From the IMG/VR virus record IMGVR_UViG_3300014057_000711: DNA of 64,000 nucleotides. One strand, 5' to 3'. A program made the position numbers and the translations under genes. Shown in pieces: positions 3,637-55,782 of the stretch. This stretch comes from an uncultured virus (IMG/VR IMGVR_UViG_3300014057_000711) (Duplodnaviria > Heunggongvirae > Uroviricota > Caudoviricetes). Position 1 is the first letter of the stretch. Each line of letters opens with the position of its first letter. Under the pieces are notes generated by a model. The model ran no database searches. It saw only the letters and a program-made list of their open reading frames with translations, and was not told the origin of the DNA.

Positions 3637-4008
3637 CTGCTCCTTGTCAGCACTCTCTCTCGGTCTCCACTGATTGACAGAAAAGATGGGTTCATAGCCC
3701 GAAGGATTGAAGTTAAACATCGGCTTGCCAACACCGCTTGCCTTTACGCTGCAAAGGTAATGCGCCACCCTCACACGCAAGGCCTGGCTCACGTTGCTGG
3801 CGAGAAATCTCCACACCTGACCGGGTAGTATTTCTCTTGCAAGCCTTGCTCGATGTGTGGGCTGGCGCTCTTTGCAGGCAGTGTAAAGGCGAAGCGATAA
3901 GTGATGGCAAGATCAATGATATTTAACTTTTAAATAATTACTGCTATGAACGAATTATCTCTTTTTAATGATTCAATCAGTGGTGCCCAGAGCACTGACA
4001 AGGAGCAG
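3637..4008. promoter_or_regulatory. Long fold-back module 1 with minus-strand promoter (TACCTTTG, 3752-3759) upstream of ardA
   Basis: Perfect inverted segments ctgctccttgtcag/ctgacaaggagcag, ccactgattga/tcaatcagtgg, gttcatagc/gctatgaac, cctttac/gtaaagg, gcaaggc/gccttgc. Confidence 0.75.
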
Positions 4009-4585
4009 AGCGTATGATGTTGTTGAGGTTTGTGACGCTGAGCTGGACTTGGCGGACTTTAAGTATGACTTCCACACGGGAAATCCGGCTGTCTATGTTT
4101 CTTCTTACAACCGCTATAACTGTGGCAACTTGGACGGCATGTGGGTGGACCTTACCCTGTGTGGCGACTATGACGAGTTTATGCAGGTATGCCGGCAAGT
4201 GGTATGGGATGAGCAGGACCCGGAATTTATGTTCCAAGACATGGAGAACTGGCCGGAGGCGTGGTACGATGAGGGCAGCCTCAGTGAGGACACCTTCGAG
4301 CGCATCCAAGAGTTTGCAGCTCTGGACGAAGATGAGCAGGAAGCCTTCGAGGCTTTCATGGACATCCGCTGCGACTCGGAGGTTTCCTTCGAGGAGTTCC
4401 GCGAGGCTTACTGCGGCAAGTGGGACAGTGAGGAGGAGTTCACCGAGCAGCTGGTGGATGACCTGGGGCTCTTAGACGAGATACCAGAGCACCTGCGGCG
4501 CTTCTTCGACATGGAGGCTTACTCTGAGGAACTTTTCCGTTATGACTATGACTTTACAGATGGCTATGTGTTCCGTGTGATGTAG
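3968..4585 (+). CDS. ardA: ArdA-family antirestriction protein (DNA mimic); start uncertain
   Basis: 'VYVSSYNRYNCGNLDGMWVDL', 'DPEFMFQD', 'FREAYCGKWDSEEEF', 'FFDMEAYSEELF...GYVFR'; very acidic. Confidence 0.9.
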   Translation: MIQSVVPRALTRSRAYDVVEVCDAELDLADFKYDFHTGNPAVYVSSYNRYNCGNLDGMWVDLTLCGDYDEFMQVCRQVVWDEQDPEFMFQDMENWPEAWYDEGSLSEDTFERIQEFAALDEDEQEAFEAFMDIRCDSEVSFEEFREAYCGKWDSEEEFTEQLVDDLGLLDEIPEHLRRFFDMEAYSEELFRYDYDFTDGYVFRVM

Positions 4586-4606
4586 GCTACATCGACCTGC
4601 CGATGG

Positions 4607-4642
4607 CGGAGCCACCACCCAAAAGGTGGCTCCGACTTTTTT
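4607..4642 (+). terminator. Intrinsic terminator after ardA
   Basis: cggagccacc/ggtggctccg stem followed by a T run. Confidence 0.75.
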
Positions 4643-4709
4643 GCCATAATCGTAAGTGAGTAGAACAAATGCCGCCATTGTGCATTATGAATTATGCATT
4701 GAAAAAAGC

Positions 4710-4745
4710 TGTCTTTTAACCGGGTGGTAATCATTATTAATTTTG
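4710..4745 (+). promoter_or_regulatory. Putative late promoter TGTCTTTT-N20-TAATTTTG
   Basis: One of six identically spaced motifs before structural genes. Confidence 0.7.
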
Positions 4746-4765
4746 CGGTAAACAAGCCGAAACCT

Positions 4766-5896
4766 ATGAAAAACACAGATTATCACCTTCACCTGAAAGG
4801 GTACGTGGGCGGTTATGACTTTGACAGCAACTACGTGGACTACGTGCTGGCTCAAAACAAAGACAAACCGGTGAACGTGCTCATAGACAGCCTGGGCGGG
4901 TCACTGGCCAAGGCTCTATCCATCGCATCAGCTTTCAAAGCTCACGGCAACGTGAGCGTGCACTTCGTGGGGATGAACGCCAGCGCGGCAACAATAGCAT
5001 CGCTGGGAGCGAAGCATATCTCCATGGACTCCTCAGCGATGTACCTGGTGCATAAATGCAGCACGGAGTTTTTTGAGTGGGGAAACCTGAACGCGGACCA
5101 GCTGGAAGCGGTGCGCTCGCAATGTGACGCCGCCATCCGTGACCTGAACAAACTGGACAACAACATCGCCACAATGTACGCCGGCAAGTGCAGCAAGCCG
5201 CAAGGGGATCTGCTGGACTTGATGCGCCAAGGGGGATGGCTCTCAGCAACAGAGGCAAAGCAATGGGGATTCGTGGATGAAGTCACGGACTTTAACGAGC
5301 CGAAACCGGTCCTGACGGACGCGGTGGCATCGGCGATGGCGGCGGCAGGGATTCCAGTGCCTGACATCTTTGTGGAAACAAAGGAACCCCTGTTCTCACG
5401 GTTCATGGCGGCGCTGCTGTCGGTGTTCGGAGTGCAGCGTGAGAACACTATTGCCAGGCATGGCGGGGAGACCGCTGTCAAGGCAGTGGCTCAGGCTCAG
5501 ACTTCTGAAGCTGAAAGCGACAATTCATGTGACAACACCAAATGTGCCATACGCAATAATGAAGCAAATGTAGTTAGTAAACAACCTGAAATCGAAAGAC
5601 CTATGAATCACACCCTCACACTCCTGGGCAAGGTCCTCGGCATCGAGGACTTTGCCGTGGGTGAGGAAGGCATGACGCTGACGCTGGAGCAGATGAAGAC
5701 CATAGAAAAGGCCATCGCACAGCGTGACAGCGACAACGCCGAACTCACCGAGCAGGTGGACGCCCTCAAAGCGGCACCGGCAGAGAAATCACAGGCTGTG
5801 GTGGACAGCTCGCAGCAGCAGACCCCAGCCTCCCCATTCGAGGAGTTCGCCGGCATGGTGAACTCAGCGAACGAGATGTTCAACCTGGTGCCTTGA
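4766..5896 (+). CDS. ClpP-like head maturation protease with C-terminal scaffold-like extension
   Basis: 'IDSLGGS', 'GMNASAATIAS', 'YLVH', 'WLSATEAKQWGFVDEV'; precedes capsid gene. Confidence 0.85.
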   Translation: MKNTDYHLHLKGYVGGYDFDSNYVDYVLAQNKDKPVNVLIDSLGGSLAKALSIASAFKAHGNVSVHFVGMNASAATIASLGAKHISMDSSAMYLVHKCSTEFFEWGNLNADQLEAVRSQCDAAIRDLNKLDNNIATMYAGKCSKPQGDLLDLMRQGGWLSATEAKQWGFVDEVTDFNEPKPVLTDAVASAMAAAGIPVPDIFVETKEPLFSRFMAALLSVFGVQRENTIARHGGETAVKAVAQAQTSEAESDNSCDNTKCAIRNNEANVVSKQPEIERPMNHTLTLLGKVLGIEDFAVGEEGMTLTLEQMKTIEKAIAQRDSDNAELTEQVDALKAAPAEKSQAVVDSSQQQTPASPFEEFAGMVNSANEMFNLVP

Positions 5897-5968
5897 TGCC
5901 CCAAGTTGACATTGCACCAAAGAATCTTGTATTAACACCAAAACCTTTTATCTAATCGACAAATCATT

Positions 5969-6934
5969 ATGGCAGGACAAGTTATATCTATACCTACCTC
6001 TGCACTGCAGGACGCAGCGGTGAAGTACCGCAAGCAACTCCTCTACATGCCTATCATCGGGTGCCAGGACACCCTGCAGCACATGACGCCTCGCCCGGGC
6101 ATCCGCTACAAGGAGAATGTGGGCGCCATAAGCGGTGACGCTCAGTTCGGACCTTACAAGCCAAGCCGCTCGATGGACTTCAACCTGACAGTGGAATACC
6201 GCACGCTGGAGACGTTCATGGGCTCGGTGGTGGCGAAGTTCGAGCCTAACTCGGCAGCATCGACCATCCTGGGCTACATGGCGGCCACCAAAGGTGACGG
6301 GCAGATGCGCGCACCATCGGCGCTGCACGTGCTGACGCTGATAGCAAAGGGGCTCTCGTCGCACCTGAATGACGCGATCTGGAATGGCGTGCGCAACGCC
6401 AGCGGTGACACCACGAAAGACCTGTTTGATGGGTTCGACACCATCACCCAGAAGGAGATCGACAATGACAAGATCAGTGTCGAGAACAAGAACTACATGA
6501 AACTCACAGAGGAGATCACCACGGCGAACGCTCTGGACATCGCCAAGGAGATTCTGTACTCTCTTGACCCACGTCTGCGCGCCCTTGACCTTAACCTCTA
6601 CTGCTCGCAGGACTTCGCGGACAAATACAACGAGGCGATGCTGCTCACGCACGCAGGAATCAACTACTACACGCAGTTCGGACAGAACACGGTGGAGGGA
6701 AGCAACGGCAAGCTGCACATCGTGCCTCTGTACAACAAGGCTGACAGCAAGTTCTTCCACGTGACTCCAAAGAGCAACATGCTGGTGGGATTCGACCAGA
6801 TGGGAGACGTGGAGAGCGTGATGGTCAAGGAATACGAGCCTTTCATCCTCTCATATATCGCCACCATGTTCTTCGGGGTGCAGTTCGAGTCTATCGACTA
6901 CCGACGCATGAAGGTGATCGAGCTGGCAGCGTGA
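5969..6934 (+). CDS. Probable major capsid protein
   Basis: 321 aa directly after the protease, 'LNDAIWNG...FDGF' HK97-like pattern, strongly biased codons. Confidence 0.7.
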   Translation: MAGQVISIPTSALQDAAVKYRKQLLYMPIIGCQDTLQHMTPRPGIRYKENVGAISGDAQFGPYKPSRSMDFNLTVEYRTLETFMGSVVAKFEPNSAASTILGYMAATKGDGQMRAPSALHVLTLIAKGLSSHLNDAIWNGVRNASGDTTKDLFDGFDTITQKEIDNDKISVENKNYMKLTEEITTANALDIAKEILYSLDPRLRALDLNLYCSQDFADKYNEAMLLTHAGINYYTQFGQNTVEGSNGKLHIVPLYNKADSKFFHVTPKSNMLVGFDQMGDVESVMVKEYEPFILSYIATMFFGVQFESIDYRRMKVIELAA

Positions 6935-6979
6935 TTCTCTCTATTATCTATTCTCTAATCACTAATCTACTATTAGACT

Positions 6980-7615
6980 ATGGCTAAATCATGTACTCCT
7001 ATACAGAAGTCGCTGGCATGGTGCCAGGGCACGCCAGAGCTCCCAGGCATCAAACGACGACTGTACTACATAAGCAAGGACCAGATTGTGCAATGGCCGA
7101 CGCTGACGCGCGACGCGAACGGGCGACTGACTTCGGCGGCATACTCTGGAAACTTCGAGCTGGTGGCTGACGCCACATGGAAGTTCATTGACATCCTGCC
7201 GGACAAGTCGCAACTCACAAGTGAGGCGCAGGGGGAATACCCATCGATGACTCAGTTGAACAAGCTGACGGCTGTTCACCCTGGCGTGGGGGTGGAGGCC
7301 TCGGCACTGGCGGCTTACGTGAACAACTGTGACTGCGTATATCTCGTGGAGACAGTGCGCGGCAAATACCGTGTGGTGGGAAGCGAGAAATGGCAGGTGA
7401 AATCGACAGTGGCGCAAGACCTGGGACAAGGGGCTACAGGAACGACAAGCACAACTCTAAGCGTGGAGGCGACGGACGAATGTCCGGCTCCTTTCTACGA
7501 AGGGCGCATCGAGACGGAAGACGGCACGATCTATGCCGGTGGCACGTCGTCGGGCTCCACAAGCGGTGAAAGCCACCTGGACCCCACTGAACCAACTGAC
7601 CTGTCAGGTCACTAA
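6980..7615 (+). CDS. Probable major tail (tube) protein
   Basis: 211 aa, 'LPGIKRRLYY', 'GKYRVVGS', T/G-rich; position after capsid. Confidence 0.55.
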   Translation: MAKSCTPIQKSLAWCQGTPELPGIKRRLYYISKDQIVQWPTLTRDANGRLTSAAYSGNFELVADATWKFIDILPDKSQLTSEAQGEYPSMTQLNKLTAVHPGVGVEASALAAYVNNCDCVYLVETVRGKYRVVGSEKWQVKSTVAQDLGQGATGTTSTTLSVEATDECPAPFYEGRIETEDGTIYAGGTSSGSTSGESHLDPTEPTDLSGH

Positions 7616-7633
7616 GAATAATGCTCCTCCTGA

Positions 7634-8281
7634 ATGGGTTCCGCTCTTGACATAGGCGAATTGTTGAGTGACATCACGTTCCCGACTGTCGGGAGCGGAA
7701 CTGTTTCTGTGCCGGAGGCACCATCAGGCAGGGCGGCACAGAAGGATCTGTTTGCTGTTCAGAAACGCAAGTCATGGGACAAAACCCATGAGGCGAGGTG
7801 TGACTTTACCTACAAACTGGCACTGACGCGTCGCTCGGATGTGGACTTCGTATCGATATGGAAGAAGTCAATCTATGGGCGCACGCTGACGGACATAAAG
7901 GGTGACCCTGCCATGGTGGAGTTCTTTGCATCGAACATGGCACCAGTAATCAGCGAGACTTTAGGCTACCACCTCGCCAGTGGCTCGTGGGCAATGTGCA
8001 CCTCGCCGAAGCGACGCCACAAGGTGAAGAATTTCGCCACATTGATTAGTGAGCGCATCGCCGCCGCGCTGGGAATACCGTTCTACGAGGACGTGGCGCT
8101 GTGTCACACAAAGCAGCGAGTGAACGCCACGTTTGAACTGAACGTCCTGCCGCGTGAGGCGAACATAATAGTGTTTGACGACTTCGTGACGACTGGGCAG
8201 ACGATGGCGGCAATGAAACGACTGCTTGTCTCCGCCCGCAAGAACTGCGTGTTTTACTCAGCAATCAACAATAAACTTTGA
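7634..8281 (+). CDS. Type I phosphoribosyltransferase-fold (ComF-like) protein
   Basis: PRPP-binding loop 'IIVFDDFVTTGQT'. Confidence 0.8.
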   Translation: MGSALDIGELLSDITFPTVGSGTVSVPEAPSGRAAQKDLFAVQKRKSWDKTHEARCDFTYKLALTRRSDVDFVSIWKKSIYGRTLTDIKGDPAMVEFFASNMAPVISETLGYHLASGSWAMCTSPKRRHKVKNFATLISERIAAALGIPFYEDVALCHTKQRVNATFELNVLPREANIIVFDDFVTTGQTMAAMKRLLVSARKNCVFYSAINNKL

Positions 8282-8336
8282 TAACTCACTACTGAAAACT
8301 CATAACTGAGAACTCATTACTCACAACTGAAAAAAC

Positions 8337-9056
8337 ATGGATAACAATTTCACAAAACAAGTTCAAGAGTGGCTGAATGCTCCTGCATCACAACGAGACT
8401 ACAACGCAGGGGCGATGATGCTGCTGAAACTCACTGGCAACAAAATTATGCATCACAATCTGATGTTGCGCCCATGTGAGAAGAATATGCTATTTATCGA
8501 GTATCAACTGAAGAAACGCCTGGACTTCCGGCTGCGGCAAATGACGCACGAGCAGGTGGAGGAAATGCAGCTGCAGGTGGAAACCATCGCAAAGAAGGTT
8601 CTGACACCAAACAGTGGCGAGAAATTCAAAGCAGGCAAGCGTGATGACCATGACTCTTTGCCTGACGAGATACAGGCTCTATACGTGGAGAACCTCTCAA
8701 TCGTGCAGAAGATGCGAGAGCTACATCTGAAACTCCGCACGCTCTCTTTGGAGAACGCCACTTGCCCTGACAGTGAGCGATATCCTTTCCTCAAGGAACT
8801 GATCACTCTTGACAAGAAACTGCACTCTAACTGGGAGGTCTATGACCACTACACAGGTGCTGACGGTGAAAAGGTGCTTACTGAAGACCTGCGTGAGCAG
8901 AGCCGTCAGGCGGTGCGGATGATTAACCTGAACAAAGGCAAGTATGCCAAGAAGCCCACAAAGGAACTCAAATCTAAGATCCTCACATGGTACGGCCAGG
9001 TTATCAACCCCACCGACAAACTCACCGCAGACCTGAAATCTCTTGGGATTCTCTAA
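8337..9056 (+). CDS. Hypothetical phage protein (helical)
   Basis: 239-aa ORF within the operon. Confidence 0.65.
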   Translation: MDNNFTKQVQEWLNAPASQRDYNAGAMMLLKLTGNKIMHHNLMLRPCEKNMLFIEYQLKKRLDFRLRQMTHEQVEEMQLQVETIAKKVLTPNSGEKFKAGKRDDHDSLPDEIQALYVENLSIVQKMRELHLKLRTLSLENATCPDSERYPFLKELITLDKKLHSNWEVYDHYTGADGEKVLTEDLREQSRQAVRMINLNKGKYAKKPTKELKSKILTWYGQVINPTDKLTADLKSLGIL

Positions 9057-22844: not shown

Positions 22845-24386
22845 TTACAATTCAAGGTGGCAAATATATTGTTTTATCCTGCTATTTAAACTCAAAATAT
22901 CATTTCTTTCATAATCGGATAATAACTTCTGAACATCATCCGAAGGGATAGAACTTAATCTTGGAATTTTCAATTTCCTTAAATGCTGACTCTGCCATCT
23001 CGGAAAACCACCATTCATCTTGTTTGTAACAGCAGAGAGCTGGTTGCGTACAAAATCGGACATGAGGAACGCTGCGAGAATGCGAAGTTGTATCAAAGTA
23101 CTTCCTATAATGTAGTAAATATTGTGCAATGGATAGTAATTGCCCTCATCCACGAATACATAAGTGTTTCCCGACATGTCAGGAAGCAATATTTTTGGTT
23201 TTGATAGCAATTCAGGACTGATGCGATCTATAGTTTTATACCATCTTGAAGGGAATTTTTTGGCGATGTGACGAGAGGTTAGTCTCTCTCTGTGCTCTTC
23301 CAAATAAGCATTTGCACGAGGGTATTTATCCAAATTTACCAACGTACCGTCTGCATTATATGGATTTAGTAAATATTCCCCTTGCCATTGGAACTTATTA
23401 CCGCGCAAATCGCGAGCGTTGATGGCAGGCAAAATCAAGTCTTCCTCTACTTTCTCAGGCAGCTCGGATGAGACAAAAACGGAGTCTGCGCCTGTTGCCA
23501 CGCCAATGCCGATTTTAAAGCCCTGCTGCTCAATTGTATGGAATCTAGAATCGGTCGAGACTTTATTAAAAGCCTCAGCCCAATCATCACCTTGTGGCAT
23601 ACACTTTTCTTCTGTAACATAACTGTTCAATTCTTCCACTTTCGTATATTCGGCGTATCGGAATGTGAATGCCGGAAGTTCAGAAGATATAATTGTAATG
23701 GCAGGATAGGCAAGAACTTCTTCTTGGAAGGCATCGGCCTGTTCAAGATTGAGGATTGTACGCAGTTGATAATATCGGGCAACCATTCGGCGTAGTTTCT
23801 TTCCATACTCGTTTTTTAGCCATCGATTGGAGCAGATAAAACAATGCAAACCGCCAGAAGAAAGTGCTTCGAGCGACTTTTCAAAAAATGGTACGTATAA
23901 ATCACAGCGATAATGGAACGTAGGAAAAGTCCGTTTGCAATATTCCTGCATCTCCGTTGGGATGTTTTCGTAGCGGATATAAGGCGGATTGCCGACAACA
24001 ATGTCGGTTTCTTCAATCTCTGCTTTTAGAAAATCGGCTGTCTGAATGTTATCGTTACAAAGATTGAATCCTAATTCTTTGATGCGTTGTCTACAACGAG
24101 CAATTTTCTCTACATCAATGTCGTAAGCCTTGACATTCCTTTGGAATGCTTCGCTTGCATCGAAACCAAACTTCACAGCTGATGACATAAGTCTGCGTGC
24201 AATCTCAACAACGAACTCGCCATCACCGCACGAAGGTTCAAGGATGCGCACATGAGCTAGATTGCGGTCGGCAGTATAACCCACGCTGTCAAGCATGAAA
24301 CTGACTACAATAGGCAATGTGAAAACATCGCCATGCTGTCCGCCGTTCTGGCGTTTGCCATAGAGGAAACCATTATTTGAACTCAT
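22845..24386 (-). CDS. Type II N6-adenine DNA methyltransferase (M.TaqI/M.PaeR7I-like)
   Basis: 'ILEPSCGDGEF' SAM-binding motif then 'VGNPPY'; C-terminal TaqI-like TRD. Confidence 0.9.
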   Translation of the reverse strand: MSSNNGFLYGKRQNGGQHGDVFTLPIVVSFMLDSVGYTADRNLAHVRILEPSCGDGEFVVEIARRLMSSAVKFGFDASEAFQRNVKAYDIDVEKIARCRQRIKELGFNLCNDNIQTADFLKAEIEETDIVVGNPPYIRYENIPTEMQEYCKRTFPTFHYRCDLYVPFFEKSLEALSSGGLHCFICSNRWLKNEYGKKLRRMVARYYQLRTILNLEQADAFQEEVLAYPAITIISSELPAFTFRYAEYTKVEELNSYVTEEKCMPQGDDWAEAFNKVSTDSRFHTIEQQGFKIGIGVATGADSVFVSSELPEKVEEDLILPAINARDLRGNKFQWQGEYLLNPYNADGTLVNLDKYPRANAYLEEHRERLTSRHIAKKFPSRWYKTIDRISPELLSKPKILLPDMSGNTYVFVDEGNYYPLHNIYYIIGSTLIQLRILAAFLMSDFVRNQLSAVTNKMNGGFPRWQSQHLRKLKIPRLSSIPSDDVQKLLSDYERNDILSLNSRIKQYICHLEL

Positions 24387-25089
24387 TCTTCACACCATTT
24401 AGATAGTTTGCAAGCGAAGCAATATACCGTTGAATAGAGATGTCATCGGCTAAGTTTCCGTATGTATTTTCGTCACTTGTCCATACAAGAGCTGTCGATG
24501 TGTAATGACGTTCAAGAATAAGTTTTTGACAAAGAATGCGATAGCGGTCGAGATAGCTTGCAGTCTCAAATTCTGGACGAACAGAAAAATAAGGTTCATA
24601 ATTCCGAACTATGCGTTCCGACGCTTTGTCTCGTCCAACAAGCATCAGCCACCCTACCCATGGAGCTTGCTGACCAGGAAACTGTCCCTCACGAAAAGCC
24701 GTCCATAAATCGACTGCAGACCCTATAGCTTCTTCTGTGCGATTATTAAAATTATTTCCATAGCTACCAACCTGAGATTTCAGTTCAATCGCTGCAATCA
24801 ACTTGCCTGAGGGAGCAATAATAAGCATATCCCAATCCTTTGAAGAGCGGAAAAAGCCTGGTAAATAATTTTTGTCTGTAATAATATAGTTATCAGGAAT
24901 CCCTGCATCAATAGCCACTTCTTTCAAAAGTTCAATAAAACCATCCATTTGTTTGCCACCGACAACAGCTCCACGATTTGAAGAGTCACCAGTATCAGAC
25001 AATTGACGAGACTTAGTTCTCCAAAAGAATCTTACAGCCTTGGATACCAAACTTGTATAATCTTTATTATTTATCATAATTTTATCCAT
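24373..25089 (-). CDS. XhoI/PaeR7I-family type II restriction endonuclease
   Basis: 'RGAVVGGKQMDGF', 'KDWDMLI', 'ELKSQVGSYGNNFNNRTEEAIG'; overlaps the MTase start. Confidence 0.85.
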   Translation of the reverse strand: MDKIMINNKDYTSLVSKAVRFFWRTKSRQLSDTGDSSNRGAVVGGKQMDGFIELLKEVAIDAGIPDNYIITDKNYLPGFFRSSKDWDMLIIAPSGKLIAAIELKSQVGSYGNNFNNRTEEAIGSAVDLWTAFREGQFPGQQAPWVGWLMLVGRDKASERIVRNYEPYFSVRPEFETASYLDRYRILCQKLILERHYTSTALVWTSDENTYGNLADDISIQRYIASLANYLNGVKNEFK

Positions 25090-32733: not shown

Positions 32734-35541
32734 ATGTCAATCTTTAGTTGGATATTTGGTAATAAAAGCAAGAATGAAACGCCACAGAATAACTCTGCCG
32801 AGCATTCTGCTATGATGGCTTTTAAGAGTGATTTGGACTCACTCTTAAAAGCTGACAGGTTTATTGCCAGACGTGATTATTTCCCACTATTAGAGCCCTA
32901 CAAAGAACTGTTTGAACAGTTCCAAACATTGAAAAAGTCGAATGCTTTGGCTTATTTCTGTGACAATAATGGTATTGAGCTTGCCACTGTAGAGGATTTC
33001 TTGAAATCTTATGAGGATATTTGCGCTAAAAATGATTCTCAAATCATTAAAGCACATAATGATGACTTTATTAATAATCATCTGAAATCTGATAAGGAAT
33101 ACCTTGACCATATCCTGGAGAAAGTTGATCCTGTAATATGCCTGGATGATGAGCAACGGGAAGTGGTCCTCTCAGATGAGGATTACACATTGGTAATAGC
33201 CGGAGCTGGAGCCGGCAAGACAACAACAGTGGCTGCCAAAGTTAAATACCTGGTGGACTATAAGCATATATACCCGAAACAGATTCTTGTGATTTCATAC
33301 ACAAATAAGGCTGTAGGGGAACTCCGTCAAAAAATAAATAAAGCACTGAAGATTGATTGCCCAATAACAACTTTCCATAAGACAGGATATGCCATTCTTA
33401 GAAGGCAGGAGGAAGAAAGGAAACTCATCGTCGACGCTGGGTTTATGTTCAACGTTATATCTAACTATCTGAAAGGGAACATACTTGAAGTGCCGGAACT
33501 GGTGGATAAACTGATTCTTTTCTTCGGAAGCTACTTTGATGCGCCATACGAAGGTGATGACCTTAATGATTTCTTTAACTATATCGCTAAAGCGGACTTC
33601 TCTACCCTGCGAGGCAACATGAACGAATATACTGAGGAAATCATTAATAAGCGCACAGGGAAACGCATCACAATAGCGCGTGAGTATCTACGCTCTACAC
33701 AAGAGGTGGTGATAGCAAACTTCCTTTATCTGAATAGCATCGACTATGTTTATGAGAAACCATATCCATACAACATACTGCACTCTCATAAACCATATAC
33801 ACCTGATTTCACTATAACGCAAGGGGAAAAGGTGGCATATATAGAACATTTTGGAATTACAGAGGATGGCAGAAATAGCCGATACTCTGCAGAGCAACTG
33901 CAGCGATACAAGAAAGCGGTTAATGACAAGGTGCGACTGCACCAAAAGCATAAGACTGATCTGATTTACACTTTCTCGGCATATAAGGACGGCCGTAGCC
34001 TACTTGAGCATCTGAACGAGGAACTGCAGAAACATGGGTTTGACCTTGTGGAACGCCCAGCAAAGAACGTTTTTGAGAAAATCGTAAATACAGAAGAAAA
34101 TAAGTATATCGCTAACTTGGTAAAACTGATATGCACGTTTATTCAGAACTTCAAAACAAATGGTCTATCTATAGATGATTTCTATAGGTTCAAACATAAG
34201 ACTAAAAACGTGCGAACTCGCCTGTTCCTGGATATATGTGAACAGTGCTACCACGAATACAGCAAGCGACTGAAGGAACGCAACGCGATTGACTTTGAGG
34301 ACATGATAAATGACTCCTCAAAGATTATCCGTGAACAGGAGGTTAAAGGTGAGAAACTTGACTTTAAATATATTATAGTTGATGAATACCAGGACATTTC
34401 TCGGCAACGCTTTAACTTAACAAAGGAACTAAGCAAACTGTGTGATGCGAAAATTGTTGCTGTAGGTGATGACTGGCAATCGATTTATGCTTATGCTGGT
34501 TCAGATATTACCCTATTCACGAACTTTAAAGAAACGTTTGGTTATGGCCTGAAACTGAGTATAACAAAAACATATCGCAACGCTCAGGAGGTAATAGACA
34601 TCGCCGGTGGATTTATCCAAAAGAACTTGGCACAAATAAAGAAAGCTCTAATCTCACCGAAACATATTGTGGATCCGGTTATCATTGAGACATACTCGGA
34701 AGATGTGGACAGAAAACAATATGAGGGGAAAGGTGGTAAATATTTCTTGATAGGTCAGACCGTAGAGAAAATTATCGAACATATCCTTAATGAAAACCCA
34801 CAATCGTCAATTCTTCTGCTGGGCAGATATGGATTTGACGCTTATAACCTGGCACGGTCTAGCGATTTTTCCTACGACGAGAAAACAGGCAGCGTTTTCT
34901 CCAAGAAATTCGCAAATAAACAGATTGAGTTTATGACAGTACATCGGGCAAAAGGACTAGGATTCGATAATGTGATTATAATAAATGCCAGAAACGAGGT
35001 CTATGGATTCCCATCAAAGGTGCAGGAAGACCCAGTGCTGAAGTTTGTAGTCAAAGATGACCACTCTATTGAATATGCGGAGGAACGACGCCTGTTCTAT
35101 GTCGCCCTGACGAGAACAAAGAACCGTGTCTATATCGTTACTCCTAAAGAACATCCTTCGGAGTTTGTAACGGAACTCCTGGCTGACTATCCGAAAATAT
35201 CTGTGCACGGTGAATTGATGAAGGAGAACAGCAAAGATATAAAGGAGAATAAACGCTGCCCAATATGTGGATATCCTCTGCAACTGCGATACAAGAAAGC
35301 ATATGGCCTACGACTATGGATATGCTCTAACGAGCCGGAAATATGCGACTTTATGACTAATGACCTTGGCGGTGGCATCCTTCCTATCATGAAATGTGAG
35401 AAATGTAGGGATGGCTACCTGATAGTGAAGAAAGGCAAGGGTAAAGCGCAACCGTTCCTCGGATGCACAAACTATAAATCAGATAAATCAGGATGTGATA
35501 ATTTTATGACTCTTGATTTCTATTTGAAACACTATAAATAA
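32734..35541 (+). CDS. UvrD/helicase IV-like SF1 helicase with inserted nuclease-like segment and C-terminal C4 zinc ribbons
   Basis: 'AGAGAGKT', 'IVDEYQD', 'VGDDWQSIY', 'TVHRAKGL', 'EERRLFYVALTR'; 'CPICG', 'CEKC..FLGCTNY'. Confidence 0.9.
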   Translation: MSIFSWIFGNKSKNETPQNNSAEHSAMMAFKSDLDSLLKADRFIARRDYFPLLEPYKELFEQFQTLKKSNALAYFCDNNGIELATVEDFLKSYEDICAKNDSQIIKAHNDDFINNHLKSDKEYLDHILEKVDPVICLDDEQREVVLSDEDYTLVIAGAGAGKTTTVAAKVKYLVDYKHIYPKQILVISYTNKAVGELRQKINKALKIDCPITTFHKTGYAILRRQEEERKLIVDAGFMFNVISNYLKGNILEVPELVDKLILFFGSYFDAPYEGDDLNDFFNYIAKADFSTLRGNMNEYTEEIINKRTGKRITIAREYLRSTQEVVIANFLYLNSIDYVYEKPYPYNILHSHKPYTPDFTITQGEKVAYIEHFGITEDGRNSRYSAEQLQRYKKAVNDKVRLHQKHKTDLIYTFSAYKDGRSLLEHLNEELQKHGFDLVERPAKNVFEKIVNTEENKYIANLVKLICTFIQNFKTNGLSIDDFYRFKHKTKNVRTRLFLDICEQCYHEYSKRLKERNAIDFEDMINDSSKIIREQEVKGEKLDFKYIIVDEYQDISRQRFNLTKELSKLCDAKIVAVGDDWQSIYAYAGSDITLFTNFKETFGYGLKLSITKTYRNAQEVIDIAGGFIQKNLAQIKKALISPKHIVDPVIIETYSEDVDRKQYEGKGGKYFLIGQTVEKIIEHILNENPQSSILLLGRYGFDAYNLARSSDFSYDEKTGSVFSKKFANKQIEFMTVHRAKGLGFDNVIIINARNEVYGFPSKVQEDPVLKFVVKDDHSIEYAEERRLFYVALTRTKNRVYIVTPKEHPSEFVTELLADYPKISVHGELMKENSKDIKENKRCPICGYPLQLRYKKAYGLRLWICSNEPEICDFMTNDLGGGILPIMKCEKCRDGYLIVKKGKGKAQPFLGCTNYKSDKSGCDNFMTLDFYLKHYK

Positions 35542-41938: not shown

Positions 41939-42149
41939 GATGCTCCTTAAAAGATGATAGAGAATTGATTACAACCGCAAATTTAATGGTTTATCGGCAC
42001 TTTTGCAAGGAACGATTGAAAATAGTAGCGCCTGATGGAGAAATAATCCTCAAAGAAACTCGCCCCTGGTGGCGAGTTCTTTGTTTCTATTAGGTATGGT
42101 GCAGGCACCATTCTTTTGTTTGATGCTCCTCACGCTACTTTGCGTGCCT

Positions 42150-42503
42150 GAAGAATGAGATGGATGTTGCCATAATGGATTTTTCATGGCGTGATTTTTG
42201 GCTACTGCTGTCGCTGCTGTATAACTATTTTCCGGTACAAAGTTAGTGCAAGCCGCTCCGCTCGCAAGGCCCAGGTCAGGTTGACTCGAAATTTTTCTTC
42301 ATTTTTTTCTTTCACCGCTGCGCTGATAAAAAAATGTTGCACCCCGAGGGGAAGAAAATTTTCGGTCAAGCCTTGCGGGTCGCTTTCCTTGACTCACTTA
42401 TTATGCACCGAAAAAAGATTATACGCGACATACGTAGACAAAAATTATTCACTTCATAAAAAATTCATCCATCATGACAACATCTGTTAACATATCATTC
42501 TTC
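42150..42503. promoter_or_regulatory. Long fold-back module 2 with minus-strand promoter (TAACTTTG, 42238-42245)
   Basis: gaagaatga/tcattcttc, gatgttgccat/atgacaacatc, tgtcgc/gcgaca, cgcaaggc/gccttgcg, aatttttcttc/gaagaaaatt. Confidence 0.7.
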
Positions 42504-42716
42504 TTCTCGGCAAGCAAAGCCGCTGACGGAGCAGAGAAAAAAGATTGCCGCTCTACCGCATCCAATAATTATTCTGCCGATTTGGTGGACCTTGACAATG
42601 AGGTTTACACCTTTGAGGTTGAGGCAAGCACCGATAGCGAGGCAAGCGAGCAGGCTGAAAGGATAGCTTTTGAGATGGGCATCCAAGTGAGTTATATCAA
42701 CATCTATAAGGCTTGA
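42474..42716 (+). CDS. Small hypothetical protein
   Basis: 80 aa; start codon lies inside the 3' arm of module 2. Confidence 0.65.
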   Translation: MTTSVNISFFFSASKAADGAEKKDCRSTASNNYSADLVDLDNEVYTFEVEASTDSEASEQAERIAFEMGIQVSYINIYKA

Positions 42717-49838: not shown

Positions 49839-49876
49839 AAAAACTGGCAACTGACAACTCATAACTGAAAACTATT

Positions 49877-50374: not shown

Positions 50375-50398
50375 TGACGACTAAAAAACTGAAAACTG

Positions 50399-50845: not shown

Positions 50846-50862
50846 TAATGTTCGACAAATCG

Positions 50863-50898
50863 TGTCTTTTGACACACTACTATTTCATAATACTTTTG
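50863..50898 (+). promoter_or_regulatory. Putative late promoter TGTCTTTT-N20-TACTTTTG
   Basis: Conserved motif and spacing. Confidence 0.7.
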
Positions 50899-50922
50899 CC
50901 TCAAATCTAAATCCAAACAAGT

Positions 50923-52434: not shown

Positions 52435-52439
52435 ATACG

Positions 52440-52542
52440 AAAAAAGGTGAGCCTGGGCACACCTTCAAACATGAGAGTGCGCACGGGCGGCACTCATATC
52501 TACACCAAGAGCCACGGCTCCTGCATATCTTCGGCAAAATTA
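52440..52542 (-). ncRNA. Candidate minus-strand small RNA between tail fibre and holin
   Basis: TAATTTTG box, gagtgc/gcactc stem, terminal aggtgtgcc/ggctcacct hairpin plus T run. Confidence 0.45.
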
Positions 52543-52604
52543 GGCATTTTTCACCTTAAATCCAAATAATCCTCATTAAATAATCAACAAAAAATCAACA
52601 TCCT

Positions 52605-53108
52605 ATGAATTTTCTGATTGACACCCTGAAAGGCGCGTCGCTGCACGTGCACGCAGTATGGCTGGCGCTGGCCTACATCGCCGTGATAATCGCCATGGCG
52701 GTTGACTTCGTGGCGGGTCTGAGAAAGGCAAAGCAGGCTGGCATAGCATCGACATCCCGTGGTTATAAAATGACCACGGAGAAGGCAGCGAAATACTTCC
52801 TGCCGATGCTGTGCCTGACGTGCGTAGACCTGATGACCTCGGTCATTCTGCCGGCACCGTTCTTCACGATGCTCATGGCGGGATTCAACATCTTCTGCGA
52901 ATGGAAGTCGGTGCTGGAGAGCACGCATGACAAGCAGGAACTCCGGGACAAGGCGAACACGTTCAACGTGATACTCAAGAACAAGGACGACATAGCCGCA
53001 ATCGTCCTGCAAGCCATGCAGATGATGGAGAAAAAGAATGAGCTGGAGAAAGCTAACCAAAGTATTAACGAACAAACACCACAACAAAATGAAGAAGAAC
53101 TTCCTTAA
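52605..53108 (+). CDS. Phage holin
   Basis: 'AMAVDFVAGLRKAK..G...SRGYK.T..K', 'EWKSVLE'; TM helices; upstream of amidase. Confidence 0.8.
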   Translation: MNFLIDTLKGASLHVHAVWLALAYIAVIIAMAVDFVAGLRKAKQAGIASTSRGYKMTTEKAAKYFLPMLCLTCVDLMTSVILPAPFFTMLMAGFNIFCEWKSVLESTHDKQELRDKANTFNVILKNKDDIAAIVLQAMQMMEKKNELEKANQSINEQTPQQNEEELP

Positions 53109-53703
53109 CATCGTGCCGCAGGAGGTGACCGATGGCAGTGAGCGCACCATCCGATATAAAGGCAATGACGGCAAATACCACAGCATAGCCTCAGGTGACG
53201 CTGGCGACGCTCCCACGCTCAGCGTGGAGCAGGTCACCAGAACGGTACAGATTTCATTGACAAATCCTTCAGCAAGTCCGCAGATAGCAGATTTCATGCT
53301 GAAATACGGCTCGATGAAACTCACGAACTTCAAAATCCTCTCTATGCGATACAACTCGACGTCCATAACCAAACTCTATTTTGAAAATGGTGTGCAGGGG
53401 CCTACTCCATACCGCTACAACCTGACCTCAGCAAAGGTCACTTTCGAGATTAACGCAAGTGTGATGGATGAAATCTCCCGTGAGACGTTCAACACCGGCA
53501 GCGCCGAGGTGATTGACTTCTTCGAGAGGACAGTGATGTCAATCATCGACGACGTGACTCCATACATGATCTATTACTATATGCTGAAGGCGAACTTCAT
53601 AATTCAGATAAGTGAGTTCACAGGCACGGAGATGCACCTTTTCAGCACCGCAAAGGACGGCACAAAGACCGACCTGGGAGTGCTCAATCAAATCCATGAT
53701 TGA
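53089..53703 (+). CDS. Hypothetical phage protein
   Basis: 204-aa ORF overlapping the holin end. Confidence 0.55.
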   Translation: MKKNFLNIVPQEVTDGSERTIRYKGNDGKYHSIASGDAGDAPTLSVEQVTRTVQISLTNPSASPQIADFMLKYGSMKLTNFKILSMRYNSTSITKLYFENGVQGPTPYRYNLTSAKVTFEINASVMDEISRETFNTGSAEVIDFFERTVMSIIDDVTPYMIYYYMLKANFIIQISEFTGTEMHLFSTAKDGTKTDLGVLNQIHD

Positions 53704-53815
53704 TCTCTAAAGGTCACTTTTAGCACCGTGAGAATTTAACACCAGGAACCATCATCTTATTAGATAATTCTTGATAATCAACTTGTTGAAACCAATACTT
53801 TAAATTTAATCTTTA

Positions 53816-54424
53816 ATGTCTAAAAAAGTAGTAATCCTGGGCACAGCCCATGGGAGCAACACTCCAGGGAAGTGTTCTCCCGACAAGAAATTCCGTGAGT
53901 ATAAATTCAGTCGTGAGGTTATCAATGACCTCAAACCAAAGCTTGAGGCTTTGGGGCTGACAGTGTATATCGACATGCCGCAGGACGTGGTGCCTCGTCC
54001 GCCTGTGGCAGAACTCGCACAGCGATGCAGGATTGTGAACAATCTGTGCAGGAAGCACGGCACGGCAAACTGCGTGTATGTGAGCATCCATGTGAACGCT
54101 GCTGGCTCGGGTGGTGTGTGGCGCACCGCACGTGGCTTCGCGGTCTATGTCGCACGTCAATGCTCGGACAACAGCAAGCGCCTTGCCAAAATGCTTTGGG
54201 ACAAGGCGATGGACTTGGGGCTGCGTGGCAACCGGTCGGTGCCATCAGCCCGATACCACCAGGCGAATTTCTACGTCATCAAGAACACGCATTGTCCTGC
54301 GGTTCTCACCGAGAACCTGTTCCAGGACAACCATGAGGATGTGGACTTCTTGATGTCGCCTGAAGGCAAAGCGAAAATCGTGGAACTGCACTATGAGTGC
54401 ATCAAAGCTTACTGTGGACTATGA
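53816..54424 (+). CDS. N-acetylmuramoyl-L-alanine amidase (Amidase_3) endolysin
   Basis: 'ILGTAHG', 'RE', 'VSIHVNA', 'PAVLTENLFQDN'. Confidence 0.9.
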   Translation: MSKKVVILGTAHGSNTPGKCSPDKKFREYKFSREVINDLKPKLEALGLTVYIDMPQDVVPRPPVAELAQRCRIVNNLCRKHGTANCVYVSIHVNAAGSGGVWRTARGFAVYVARQCSDNSKRLAKMLWDKAMDLGLRGNRSVPSARYHQANFYVIKNTHCPAVLTENLFQDNHEDVDFLMSPEGKAKIVELHYECIKAYCGL

Positions 54425-55014
54425 AAAACTCACTAATCACTCATCTCTCATCACTAATCATGCTAATGGCAGCTATGCTGATATTGGCATCAGGCTGCCG
54501 CTCGCAGAAGAAGGTGGTGAAATCAGAGGTCGCTATCGCTGACACGTGCTCGGTGAGCAGCTTATCCACCACGGCCGTAGAGCGGCTGAGGTGGATGGAC
54601 AGCATCTCACTGCACTTCGACAGCCTGGAACTGGAATGGCGCGTGCCTGCAGACCATTTTGCTGAAATCGGCAACATGGCCTACGACACGGCGCAAAACT
54701 CGTTGTATAGGCCGGCGGCCGGATCTGCGGCGAAGGGGGCTGCCCTTTTCCCAGCGCAACCTCGCCAGGGCTCGGTTTTGCTGAGGGCAAGACATGCATC
54801 ACTGGGGAAGGTCGGCAGACTTGAGCGAGGCTCTGCGAGCTGCGCTCAGCAAGCCGACAGTGTGATGCACCACCGCACATCAGCCTCCGACATGAAGACA
54901 GACAACGACACCACAGCAATCGCCAAACCTCCCGACCTGGAATGGCTCACATTTGCAATCATCGCTGGACTCGTGGTGGTGTTTATAATAATCTTCTGGA
55001 TTGAATACGAATAG
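54421..55014 (+). CDS. Lipoprotein with C-terminal TM helix (unimolecular spanin-like)
   Basis: Lipobox 'LASGC', C-terminal hydrophobic helix, directly after endolysin. Confidence 0.55.
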   Translation: MKNSLITHLSSLIMLMAAMLILASGCRSQKKVVKSEVAIADTCSVSSLSTTAVERLRWMDSISLHFDSLELEWRVPADHFAEIGNMAYDTAQNSLYRPAAGSAAKGAALFPAQPRQGSVLLRARHASLGKVGRLERGSASCAQQADSVMHHRTSASDMKTDNDTTAIAKPPDLEWLTFAIIAGLVVVFIIIFWIEYE

Positions 55015-55062
55015 CTGAAGTTAGTATTTTTTTCTCATAAAGTGAATTTTTATGGTTATTGG

Positions 55063-55099
55063 GAAAGGCTGGACCGTGAGGTTCGGTCTTTCTTTTTTG
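55063..55099 (+). terminator. Terminator of the lysis cassette
   Basis: gaaaggctggacc-GTGA-ggttcggtctttc plus T run. Confidence 0.75.
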
Positions 55100-55107
55100 C
55101 CTGGTGC

Positions 55108-55202
55108 AAAAGAAAGACTGCGCCCACGTCTCTCGACGAAAAGCGCAGACAACTAAAAAGGAATGTATTAATTACGATGGTTAAAATTCTAATGCAAATA
55201 TA
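55108..55202 (-). ncRNA. Candidate minus-strand small RNA
   Basis: TATATTTG box, U-rich body, ctgcgc..cgtc-GAGA-gacg..gcgcag hairpin plus T-rich tail. Confidence 0.45.
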
Positions 55203-55430
55203 GTGTGTTTTTATGACATTCGCAAATGTTTTCAGCCAAACATTGGTTTTTATAGGTTTTTGTAGTGTTATTATTTACCTCGGGTACCAGGTGGTTTACT
55301 CATGGTTTACTTTGTTAAAAAAATGGCATCTGATAATCAGCGGTTTACAAAGGTATGGTTTACTCTTGATTACTCATGGGTGCGCAAGTGGTTTAATCTT
55401 GCAGTGTTGAGTCCAGACGCAGACCGCCGC

Positions 55431-55782
55431 CATTGATGTTGACTATAACAAGCTGATGTGGTGCCTCATACCGCCGCTTGACTGACAGAATTGCCGTGTC
55501 ATTGAATTTTGTGAAACATATTTTTACTTAGCAAAGTTAGCGCATCAGACCACCGCACAAGGACAGGCCCTGGCGGGTTTTGCTGAAAAATCTCCACACC
55601 TGCGGGTAGTATTTTTCGGCAAAATCCTTGTGCTCGCAGTGGTCTCTACAGATGCGCACCTTATTGCACGTAAAAATTATGTTTCACTTCACAAAATTCA
55701 TCTATCATGACACAGCAATTCTTCAACATCAGTCAAGCTCCAAGCCAAGGGGCACAAGAGAACATTCATGTCAACATCAATG
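55431..55782. promoter_or_regulatory. Long fold-back module 3 with minus-strand promoter (TAACTTTG, 55532-55539)
   Basis: cattgatgttgac/gtcaacatcaatg, gcttgactga/tcagtcaagc, tgaattttgtgaa/ttcacaaaattca, gcacaagga/tccttgtgc. Confidence 0.75.

What the first reader, a model, noticed from the sequence alone, without database searches (positions are those of the whole stretch)
3637..55782. Three 'backward-promoter' fold-back modules: candidate ssDNA-activated (Frpo-like) or invertible expression system inside a tailed phage
Seen: 3637-4008, 42150-42503 and 55431-55782 are each imperfect inverted repeats of ~350+ nt whose 3' arm includes the start codon and first codons of the downstream ORF. In all three the 5' arm carries, on the MINUS strand, CTTG-N18/19/18-TAnnTTTG (TACCTTTG, TAACTTTG, TAACTTTG). 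The matching gene-facing copy in the 3' arm is degenerate at the -7 box (gctctttg, ttattatg, cttattg). Modules 1 and 3 also share the apex AAATCTCCACACCTG(AC)CGGGTAGTATTT. Known: TAnnTTTG is the Bacteroidota primary-sigma -7 box, and Frpo/ssi-type promoters work only when single-stranded DNA folds, driving early anti-defence genes such as ardA in plasmid leading regions. Inference: if the minus strand folds, the perfect box becomes the non-template strand of a mismatched, pre-opened duplex that points INTO the gene, whereas in dsDNA it fires away from it. That would imply an ssDNA stage (conjugative mobilisation, strand displacement or cruciform extrusion) for a dsDNA-phage-like genome. The modules could also be relics acquired from an ICE.
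Basis: partly seen in the sequence, partly recalled or inferred. Interest (0 to 1): 0.9.

Follow-up and report, generated by a model that had tools for sequence, protein, structure and literature searches.

The report
Fold-back promoters built for single-stranded DNA
Three 350-base hairpin-forming DNA modules in front of an anti-restriction gene and two small genes of a gut-bacterial phage belong to a widespread, undescribed family that looks like the Bacteroidales version of the promoters that conjugative plasmids use while their DNA is still single-stranded.

Summary
The window has exactly three long fold-backs (3637-4008, 42150-42503, 55431-55782; z 11-12, next best 4.5). Each carries CTTG-N18/19-TAnnTTTG on the minus strand of its 5' arm; these are the only three matches in 64 kb.

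Module 1 drives ArdA. The modules belong to a family with a conserved apex, found in 32 of 201 genomes of the bacterial family and in 57 IMG/VR contigs. No Rfam family matches, and my literature searches found no paper on it.

- **Structure:** the arms diverge but stay complementary (37 of 94 pairs compensatory in one subfamily).
- **Promoter asymmetry:** the perfect -7 box sits on the reversed arm in 45 of 57 viral-contig copies, and never on the gene-facing arm.
- **Strand:** the gene's template strand folds better in 40 of 48 modules.
- **Context:** homologues head PcfK/PcfJ, ArdA, ArdC-like and similar operons in conjugative and integrative elements. They also lie beside tape-measure, terminase and head-protease genes in phage contigs.

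Best reading (about 0.55): these are Frpo-like promoters that work on single-stranded DNA, moving as self-contained cassettes. An invertible switch is not supported. Whether a phage ever exposes the needed single strand is untested. That is the surprising open point.

The parts
3637..4008 (-). Module 1: imperfect fold-back. The minus strand (template of ArdA) is the strand proposed to fold.
   Evidence: -98.2 kcal/mol, z -12.4; z 12.2
3752..3781 (-). Module 1 reversed promoter CTTG-N18-TACCTTTG in the 5' arm. It fires away from ArdA in duplex DNA and into ArdA in the folded minus strand.
   Evidence: In the MFE, CTTG and CTTTG are paired and T3759-A3758-C3757 are unpaired.
3805..3836 (.). Module 1 apex with the conserved family motif (AAATCTCCACACCTGACCGGGTAGTATTT)
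   Evidence: Motif conserved in 32 of 201 family genomes and 57 IMG/VR loci.
3867..3874 (+). Module 1 gene-facing pseudo-box GCTCTTTG (TA replaced by GC)
   Evidence: pairs with the reversed box
3968..4585 (+). ArdA anti-restriction gene. In G001 and run X1, 31 extra nt at 4014 put ATG 3947 in frame instead.
   Evidence: Pfam PF07275 E 2.8e-29; phrog_2059
3608..3625 (+). Terminator-like hairpin plus T-run just upstream of module 1
4607..4634 (+). Terminator-like hairpin after ArdA; closes the cassette
42150..42503 (-). Module 2: fold-back with a divergent, larger apex (inner arms 42287-42300 / 42351-42364)
   Evidence: -80.8 kcal/mol, z -10.2; z 11.1
42238..42268 (-). Module 2 reversed promoter CTTG-N19-TAACTTTG
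42474..42716 (+). 80-aa ORF driven by module 2; function unknown. A homologue follows a module next to a terminase gene in L068.
   Evidence: no family; Atlas neighbours mostly viral, scores under 0.9
55431..55782 (-). Module 3: fold-back
   Evidence: -99.4 kcal/mol, z -13.9; z 11.1
55532..55561 (-). Module 3 reversed promoter CTTG-N18-TAACTTTG
55588..55614 (.). Module 3 apex with the conserved family motif
55707..55937 (+). 76-aa ORF driven by module 3; function unknown. Followed by a perfect 13-bp hairpin at 55944-55975.
   Evidence: The same module and ORF occur in integrative-element-like islands of G001:C2 and G182:C28.

Best explanation
Each module is a self-contained promoter cassette of the Frpo/ssi type, adapted to Bacteroidales RNA polymerase.

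When the gene's template strand (the minus strand here) is single-stranded, its ~350 nt fold into a long imperfect hairpin. The arm far from the gene supplies a canonical -33/-7 promoter as the non-template strand. The arm continuous with the gene supplies the template. The -33 element and the TTTG of the -7 box are base-paired, while the 'TA' part is mismatched, so the site is partly pre-opened. RNA polymerase starts in the stem about 60-90 nt before the start codon and runs outward into the gene.

In ordinary duplex DNA the same box points away from the gene, and the gene-facing copy is not a canonical promoter. The gene should therefore be silent or weak.

The family serves genes needed at the moment of entry (ArdA, ArdC-like, PcfK/PcfJ and others). 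It is at home in Bacteroidales conjugative and integrative elements, and phages carry the same cassettes.

**Shown:** structure, covariation, promoter asymmetry, strand bias, gene associations, phage and conjugative-element contexts.

**Inferred:** recognition by RNA polymerase on ssDNA, the start site, silence in dsDNA, and any single-stranded stage for the phage.
For: **Structure.**
- ssDNA folds of -81 to -99 kcal/mol, z -10 to -14.
- These exceed the -75 kcal/mol per 300 nt cut-off used to mine ssDNA promoters in pESBL (passages of PMC12672017).

**Promoter.**
- The only three CTTG-N18/19-TAnnTTTG matches in the window are the three reversed arms.
- TAnnTTTG is the box this genome uses: 82 matches against 45.6 expected, facing the gene 25-65 nt before many start codons.

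**Family-wide asymmetry.**
- A perfect box is on the reversed arm in 45 of 57 IMG/VR copies and on the gene-facing arm in 0 of 57. 11 of the remaining 12 reversed arms show a one-mismatch box (TACCTTCG or TATCTTCG); the twelfth (L117) is cut by its contig end.
- Among 45 distinct modules with arms at least 70% alike, the counts are 29 against 1. That one is not at the homologous place.

**Covariation.** 37 of 94 pairs have compensatory double changes in 8 phage-type modules.

**Strand.**
- G.T-type mismatches number 328 on the minus strand against 231 on the plus strand.
- The minus strand is more stable in 40 of 48 modules, mean 3.6 kcal/mol.
- The three F-plasmid fold-backs show the same sign.
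- The apex loop reads C-GNA-G (GCA, GTA, GAA) on the minus strand. That this is an unusually stable DNA triloop is recalled.

**Pre-opening.** In all three modules 1-3 nt of 'TAn' are unpaired, while the -33 element and TTTG are paired.

**Genes served.**
- Of 19 ArdA relatives with enough upstream sequence, 15 have the apex module and 3 have a module-2-type fold-back.
- PcfK lies downstream in 8 of 15 genome loci fetched, with TraQ, Toprim or coupling-protein genes nearby.
- ArdC-like, DUF1281-like and ComF-like genes follow modules elsewhere; these labels are my reading of the sequences.

**Cassette form.** Terminator-like hairpins bracket module plus gene, and there is no gene-facing canonical box inside.
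Against: - No transcription or ssDNA data exist. The only RNA-library evidence was contigs, which cannot show starts or strands.
- The window shows no relaxase, T4SS or rolling-circle initiator. The ssDNA source for this phage-like element is therefore unknown.
- The three modules are spread over 52 kb rather than clustered as in a leading region.
- The wobble bias in phage-type modules rests largely on one subfamily (67 against 21). The other phage-type modules give 56 against 53 (my tally of the rows).
- About 7 ICE-type modules have the apex but no sigma-A-type box on either arm.
- A-rich mRNA leaders could produce part of the strand asymmetry.
- The reversed box is a perfectly good duplex promoter, so a function in dsDNA cannot be excluded.
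- The function of the conserved apex is unexplained.
Confidence: 0.55

Rival explanations
1. The modules work in duplex DNA. The reversed box is an ordinary promoter firing leftward (an antisense or small RNA). The palindrome acts as a supercoil-sensitive or cruciform switch, or as an insulator. The gene is read from the weak gene-facing arm, perhaps helped by negative supercoils generated behind the divergent polymerase.
For: - The reversed box with its -33 element is canonical for duplex DNA.
- The apex is flanked by A/T tracts and a short stable stem, which would favour local extrusion.
- The cassettes sit in dsDNA phages with no visible ssDNA source.
- Gene-facing arms keep CCTTG and CTTT remnants.
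Against: - Leftward transcripts would run into terminators or the 3' ends of co-oriented genes, and have no conserved product.
- Module 2's leftward operon has its own box at 41978.
- Covariation extends about 100 nt beyond the would-be start sites on both arms, which a divergent-promoter model does not need.
- By my rough estimate, not a tool result, full extrusion of arms with 13-30% mismatch is energetically costly.
- The strand bias is not expected for a duplex element.
Confidence: 0.15
2. The fold-back acts in the sense RNA. Read-through transcripts fold into a long hairpin that hides the start codon or is cut by RNase III, controlling translation or processing of the downstream gene.
For: - The start codon and first codons lie inside the 3' arm in all three modules.
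- The plus strand also folds strongly, for example -90.5 against -99.4 kcal/mol for module 3.
Against: - Terminator-like hairpins stand just upstream of the modules.
- Wobble and energy bias favour the minus strand: 328 against 231, and 40 of 48 modules.
- An RNA model does not explain a canonical promoter kept on the antisense arm in 45 of 57 copies and never on the sense arm.
- No Rfam family matches.
Confidence: 0.1
3. The modules are single-strand initiation or origin signals (ssi/sso type). RNA polymerase or a primase makes a primer on the folded strand for complementary-strand synthesis, and gene expression is secondary.
For: - Frpo is reported to do both jobs (passages of PMC12672017).
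- Long orientation-specific hairpins with a conserved loop motif recall ssoA of rolling-circle plasmids (recalled).
- ICE neighbours encode Toprim or primase proteins.
- The conserved apex would suit a protein recognition site.
Against: - There are several copies per element, each placed exactly in front of a gene with its start codon in the arm.
- 18 of 19 ArdA genes have one.
- This placement is what a promoter needs, not an origin.
Confidence: 0.1
4. The modules are invertible promoter switches: recombination between the outer repeats flips the segment so that the perfect box faces the gene.
For: - Outer repeats of 18-20 nt are 90-94% complementary.
- Bacteroidales are known for invertible promoters (recalled).
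- Tyrosine recombinases target the apex region in some loci.
Against: - All 15 ArdA loci with the apex have it in one orientation.
- 0 of 57 IMG/VR copies have the box on the gene-facing arm.
- No joints were seen in four metagenome runs, though contigs drop rare variants.
- Complementarity runs through the whole segment, which an inverton does not need.
- No recombinase gene is in the window.
Confidence: 0.03

Closest known systems
Frpo / ssi single-stranded-DNA promoters of IncF and IncI1 plasmid leading regions (F, ColIb-P9, pESBL)
   Same: - A long imperfect stem-loop of about 300-380 nt directly upstream of entry genes, including ardA, klcA and ssb.
- Promoter boxes are reconstituted in the stem.
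- There are several per element, one per operon.
- The F plasmid itself has fold-backs centred 195-208 nt before a klcA-like gene, ssb and an ORF. Their template strand is the more stable fold.
- They are reported active on ssDNA and not dsDNA (passages of PMC11541004 and PMC12672017).
   Different: - No sequence similarity (best blastn E 0.23).
- Bacteroidota -33/-7 boxes instead of -35/-10.
- A 26-nt conserved apex motif.
- The start codon lies inside the arm.
- Found in phage-like genomes and integrative islands as well as conjugative elements.
- In this window there is no oriT, relaxase or T4SS.
- Activity is untested.
ssDNA promoter of the Gram-positive conjugative plasmid pLS20 family
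   Same: It shows that the principle exists outside Proteobacteria (search listing only, PMC8708921).
   Different: A different phylum and sigma factor. I did not read the paper beyond the listing.
Phage N4 early promoters (hairpins extruded from supercoiled dsDNA and read by the virion RNA polymerase)
   Same: A precedent, recalled, for a dsDNA phage using a DNA hairpin as a promoter for early genes.
   Different: N4 hairpins are 5-7 bp stems read by a phage polymerase. Here the arms are about 170 nt with host-type boxes, and no phage RNA polymerase gene was found.
Single-strand origins (sso) of rolling-circle plasmids and ICEBs1
   Same: Orientation-specific folded ssDNA recognised by host RNA polymerase. 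A conserved loop motif in an otherwise variable hairpin (recalled; PMC4595007 seen in listing only).
   Different: An sso makes a short primer and is not placed in front of a gene. Here the promoter points out of the hairpin into an ORF.

Membership tests
Frpo/ssi-type ssDNA promoters | Large stem-loop (about 300 nt, strongly negative ssDNA folding energy) immediately upstream of an operon | tested here: met
   -81 to -99 kcal/mol, z -10 to -14. The mining cut-off in PMC12672017 was below -75 kcal/mol per 300 nt.
Frpo/ssi-type ssDNA promoters | Host-type promoter boxes reconstituted in the stem so that transcription from the folded template strand runs into the gene (backward in duplex DNA) | tested here: met
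   for the window. 45 of 57 and 29 of 45 relatives have the box on the reversed arm, against 0 and 1 on the gene-facing arm.
Frpo/ssi-type ssDNA promoters | Lies in the leading region of a conjugative element with genes templated by the transferred strand | tested here: inconclusive
   The window has no relaxase, T4SS or oriT-linked gene and has phage hallmark genes. Relatives sit next to TraQ, Toprim and coupling-protein genes. The transferred strand of those elements was not determined.
Frpo/ssi-type ssDNA promoters | Drives establishment or anti-defence genes | tested here: met
   ArdA in the window. 18 of 19 ArdA relatives have a fold-back. PcfK/PcfJ, ArdC-like and others elsewhere.
Frpo/ssi-type ssDNA promoters | Sequence homology to known Frpo/ssi elements | tested here: not met
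   blastn of the three modules against 18 kb of the F leading region gives only 10-35 nt chance matches, best E 0.23. The modules are therefore analogous, not homologous.
Frpo/ssi-type ssDNA promoters | Active on ssDNA, inactive on dsDNA; start site mapped in the stem | not testable with these tools
   Only contigs of RNA libraries were available.
Bacteroidales invertible promoters | Both orientations present among genomes or reads; short flanking repeats; recombinase nearby | tested here: not met
   One orientation in 15 of 15 ArdA loci and 57 of 57 IMG/VR copies by box position. No joints. No recombinase in the window.
Rfam structured RNA families | Match to any of 4227 covariance models | tested here: not met
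   No hit at gathering score in the window. Only noise at E up to 10 on modules 1 and 3 and on seven ICE-type loci.

The most novel reading that the evidence does not exclude
Tailed phages of rumen and gut Bacteroidales really use promoters that work only on folded single-stranded DNA. Their genomes or prophages would then pass through a single-stranded entry stage. Candidates are conjugative or Hfr-type transfer of the prophage followed by zygotic induction, or end resection or strand displacement after injection. The conserved apex would double as a recombination and integration hot spot that shuffles anti-defence cassettes among phages, integrative elements and conjugative elements.
Probability: 0.25. 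Interest if true: 0.9.

Novelty: new variant of a known kind. Interest (0 to 1): 0.72.

Why it matters
Single-stranded-DNA promoters are documented for proteobacterial plasmids (F, ColIb-P9, pESBL) and the Gram-positive pLS20. My searches found nothing for Bacteroidota, and Rfam has no model.

A recognisable signature now exists: a conserved apex, a reversed TAnnTTTG box and about 170-nt arms. It would let one mark entry-phase genes and find new anti-defence genes in the very abundant mobile elements of gut and rumen Bacteroidales. It would also give early-expression cassettes for conjugative vectors in these hard-to-engineer bacteria.

The same cassettes sit inside tailed-phage genomes. This raises a testable question: do these phages see a single-stranded stage, or can the modules also fire from duplex DNA?

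Tried and rejected
- **Rfam.** No family matched. No tRNA was found.
- **GenBank phage collection.** No similar phage for the window's 1-13 kb or 42-64 kb, or for modules of L065 and L100. The only hit was one 68-nt apex match in an unannotated 6-kb record.
- **FopS sRNAs of Bacteroides.** I recalled these as linked to conjugative transposons. The paper's passages describe PUL regulators, not this element, so I dropped the idea.
- **Sequencing runs.** 20 runs hold part of module 1 and ArdA, all as contigs from animal gut metagenomes. Laying 2 RNA and 2 DNA runs gave no joints and no usable starts or strands. RNA-library contigs cover parts of both arms but may be DNA. This is no evidence either way.
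- **Sigma-70 boxes in the F fold-backs.** My simple scan was inconclusive (best 7 of 12), so the 'backward' geometry of Frpo itself rests on reasoning and the literature.
- **Apex as oriT nick site.** Rejected: there are several copies per element, each before a gene, and the loop base varies.
- **Atlas look-ups of the 76-aa and 80-aa ORFs.** Only unnamed clusters, scores under 0.9.
- **Phylum-wide apex scan.** 1 of 401 genomes matched, and that was G001 itself. Only 7 of the others were from the same order outside the family, so the range beyond the family is not settled.
- **PHROG scan coverage.** Only 150 of the 217 ORFs from 21 representative IMG/VR loci were scanned.

Full report

Yes. 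Nested inverted-repeat pairs run from the outer ends (3637-3656/3989-4008; 42150-42162/42491-42503; 55426-55443/55770-55787) to the centre of each region. The minus strands, folded as DNA, give -98.2, -80.8 and -99.4 kcal/mol. Shuffles give means of -39 to -49, so z is -12.4, -10.2 and -13.9.

A scan of all centres in the window for arm complementarity finds these three and nothing else: z 12.2, 11.1 and 11.1, with the next best at 4.5.

The pattern CTTG-N18/19-TAnnTTTG has exactly three matches in 64 kb. All are on the minus strand in the 5' arms. 0.44 are expected, and 0 of 100 shuffles reach 3.

TAnnTTTG is the box this genome uses. There are 82 matches against 45.6 expected, and many face a gene 25-65 nt before its ATG. 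The three reversed boxes stand out against that internal control.

Modules 1 and 3 share the apex and module 2 has another. The start codons lie in the 3' arms.

**2. What surrounds the modules?**

- **Genes served.** Module 1 drives ArdA (Pfam E 2.8e-29; phrog_2059). Modules 2 and 3 drive 80-aa and 76-aa ORFs with no family.
- **Cassette form.** Each module plus gene is bracketed by terminator-like hairpins. None has a gene-facing canonical box. They are autonomous cassettes.
- **Phage-like window.** It has DnaD- and DnaC-like loaders, a head maturation protease directly after ArdA, a weak large-terminase match, an endolysin and a 1380-aa tape measure. It also holds an XhoI-like restriction-modification pair, a helicase IV/UvrD-like helicase, and TonB- and BspA-like proteins.
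- **No conjugation genes.** No relaxase, T4SS gene or integrase was found among the 67 ORFs scanned with Pfam or the 58 scanned with NCBIfam.
- **Host.** The own assembly is not held. The nearest genome, G001, has window 1-30.1 kb at 100% identity up to a contig end. Record titles of ArdA relatives name uncultured rumen and gut Bacteroidales.

**3. A family, not three oddities**

The apex (AATCTCCA-S-M-CCT-N-CGG-S-T-W-GTATTT) is conserved while the arms diverge. It is found in:

- 32 of 201 genomes of the bacterial family, in 15 of 35 genera;
- 57 IMG/VR contigs;
- 1 of 401 genomes sampled across the phylum, and that one is G001 itself. Few of the other 400 were close relatives.

Rfam has no matching model. 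My literature searches found single-stranded-DNA promoters only for F, ColIb-P9, pESBL and pLS20, and nothing for Bacteroidota.

**4. Evidence on structure and strand**

- **Arm similarity.** Of 51 distinct modules (under 95% alike), 45 have arms 70-92% alike over about 90-150 aligned positions.
- **Covariation.** An alignment of 8 phage-type modules gives a 94-pair consensus hairpin. 37 of those pairs show compensatory double changes.
- **Wobble bias.** Mismatch types favour the minus strand: G.T-type 328 against 231. This count includes four truncated copies that lean the other way.
- **Folding energy.** The minus strand is the more stable DNA fold in 40 of 48 modules, by 3.6 kcal/mol on average.
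- **Comparison with F.** The three fold-backs of the F plasmid leading region were found with the same scan. They lie 195-208 nt before a klcA-like gene, ssb and an ORF, and they show the same sign.

Caveats apply. Relatives are not independent. Among phage-type modules the wobble bias comes mostly from one subfamily (67 against 21, the rest 56 against 53, my tally rows). A-rich mRNA leaders may contribute to the asymmetry.

**5. The promoter asymmetry**

- **IMG/VR copies.** A perfect TAnnTTTG lies 36-51 nt from the apex on the reversed arm in 45 of 57 copies, and on the gene-facing arm in 0 of 57. Of the 12 reversed arms without it, 11 carry a one-mismatch box (TACCTTCG or TATCTTCG) and one (L117) is cut by its contig end.
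- **Distinct modules.** Among the 45 well-paired modules the counts are 29 against 1, and that one is not at the homologous place.
- **Spacing.** The gene-facing arm also tends to have a shorter spacer, so the reversed arm carries bulged bases.
- **Local pairing.** In the minimum-energy folds of the three window modules, the -33 CTTG and the TTTG of the -7 box are paired. 1-3 nt of the 'TAn' part are unpaired. This gives a duplex-like site that is partly pre-opened where melting would begin.
- **Exception.** About 7 ICE-type modules upstream of PcfK/PcfJ have the apex but no such box on either arm. This is unexplained.

**6. Where relatives live**

- **Conjugative and integrative elements.** In 8 of 15 genome loci fetched, PcfK (usually with PcfJ and DUF3873) follows the module. 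TraQ, Toprim and a coupling-protein gene are nearby. The module-3-like copy of G001 and G182 lies in an island with excisionase-like, DUF3987 and primase genes.
- **ArdA loci.** Of 23 ArdA relatives, 19 had enough upstream sequence. Of those, 15 have the apex module, 3 have a module-2-type fold-back with the reversed TAACTTTG, and 1 has none.
- **Other downstream genes.** These include ArdC-like, DUF1281-like, ComF-like and RadC-like proteins. The first three labels are my reading of the sequences.
- **Phage contexts.** Of 15 representative IMG/VR loci scanned (150 of 217 ORFs), 9 have tape-measure, terminase, head-protease, tail or endolysin genes within 6 kb. One (L067) has the same layout as window module 1: module, anti-defence gene, head protease. 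The phage setting is therefore recurrent and not an assembly accident.

**7. How it most likely works**

The design is that of Frpo/ssi promoters. On the folded template strand, the distal arm is the non-template strand of a near-canonical promoter and the proximal arm is the template, so RNA polymerase runs out of the stem into the gene. In duplex DNA the box points backward.

This follows from strand polarity. It is consistent with reports that such promoters are active on ssDNA and not dsDNA (passages). My attempt to see the same box geometry in F itself was inconclusive.

For conjugative and integrative elements the single strand is supplied by transfer. For the phage it is not known. The possibilities I consider are:

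- transfer of the prophage as part of conjugatively mobilised DNA, followed by zygotic induction;
- resection or strand displacement after injection;
- a duplex mode of action (local extrusion helped by the divergent promoter);
- cassettes that are only passengers.

Against the passenger idea, the reversed box and the complementarity are intact in at least eight distinct phage-type lineages. This argues for continuing selection or frequent re-acquisition.

**8. Alternatives**

- **Invertible switch.** Disfavoured: only one orientation is seen throughout, and no joints were found.
- **Sense-RNA leader hairpin.** It fits the buried start codons. It does not fit the strand bias, the upstream terminators or the conserved antisense promoter.
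- **Priming signal (ssi/sso).** Compatible with the Frpo analogy. It does not explain the strict placement before genes.

**9. Verdict**

The Frpo-like reading is the best supported (about 0.55), and it now rests on a family of dozens of diverged copies.

By sequence the modules are not members of the Frpo/ssi family. They are a Bacteroidales analogue with its own conserved apex, so I class them as a new variant of a known kind.

The open and most interesting point is their recurrent presence inside tailed-phage genomes.

Noticed in passing
L077, L079, L091, L093, L097, L103, L108, L115, L117 (IMG/VR loci), about 11 nt 3' of the apex: The gene-facing arm is replaced by unrelated DNA right after the apex. 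In the three junction types examined, tyrosine integrase and HTH_17 excisionase-like genes lie 2.4-4.5 kb beyond the break. The conserved apex therefore looks like an integration hot spot for integrative elements.
   Followed up: partly
window 4014: G001 and metagenome run X1 carry 31 extra nt here, which put ATG 3947 in frame with ArdA. The window has the deletion, so ArdA must start at ATG 3968 in another frame, and a 22-codon ORF from 3947 ends at 4014.
   Followed up: partly
window 22845-25089 (-): An XhoI-like restriction endonuclease with an Eco57I/TaqI-type N6 methyltransferase: a restriction-modification pair carried inside the phage-like region.
   Followed up: no
window 32734-35541 (+): A 935-aa helicase IV / PcrA / UvrD-like helicase. 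Host UvrD is reported to act in ss-to-ds conversion after conjugation (passages of PMC12672017). Any link is speculation.
   Followed up: no
L047, L049, L050, L055, L023, L029, L033: ICE-type modules upstream of PcfK/PcfJ keep the apex and the hairpin but have no TAnnTTTG-type box on either arm. One related operon (L054) encodes an ECF-type sigma factor, so another sigma may read them.
   Followed up: no
L024 (G032:C86), modules at about 1524 and 2236 on the reverse strand: Two modules lie 712 nt apart, the second in front of an ArdA-like ORF. This is an array of one module per gene, as in plasmid anti-defence islands.
   Followed up: no
L061, L062, L065, L085, L087, L100, L109, L112 and window 7634-8281: ComF/phosphoribosyltransferase-like proteins of 164-222 aa, often followed by a RadC-like 'DNA repair protein' (phrog_10276), are the commonest cargo behind phage-type modules. 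The window's 215-aa ORF has a faint GntX/ComF match.
   Followed up: no
L080:8380 and L096:3356: Further long fold-backs with a reversed TAnnTTTG box but without the canonical apex, like module 2. The family is therefore wider than the apex-defined set.
   Followed up: no
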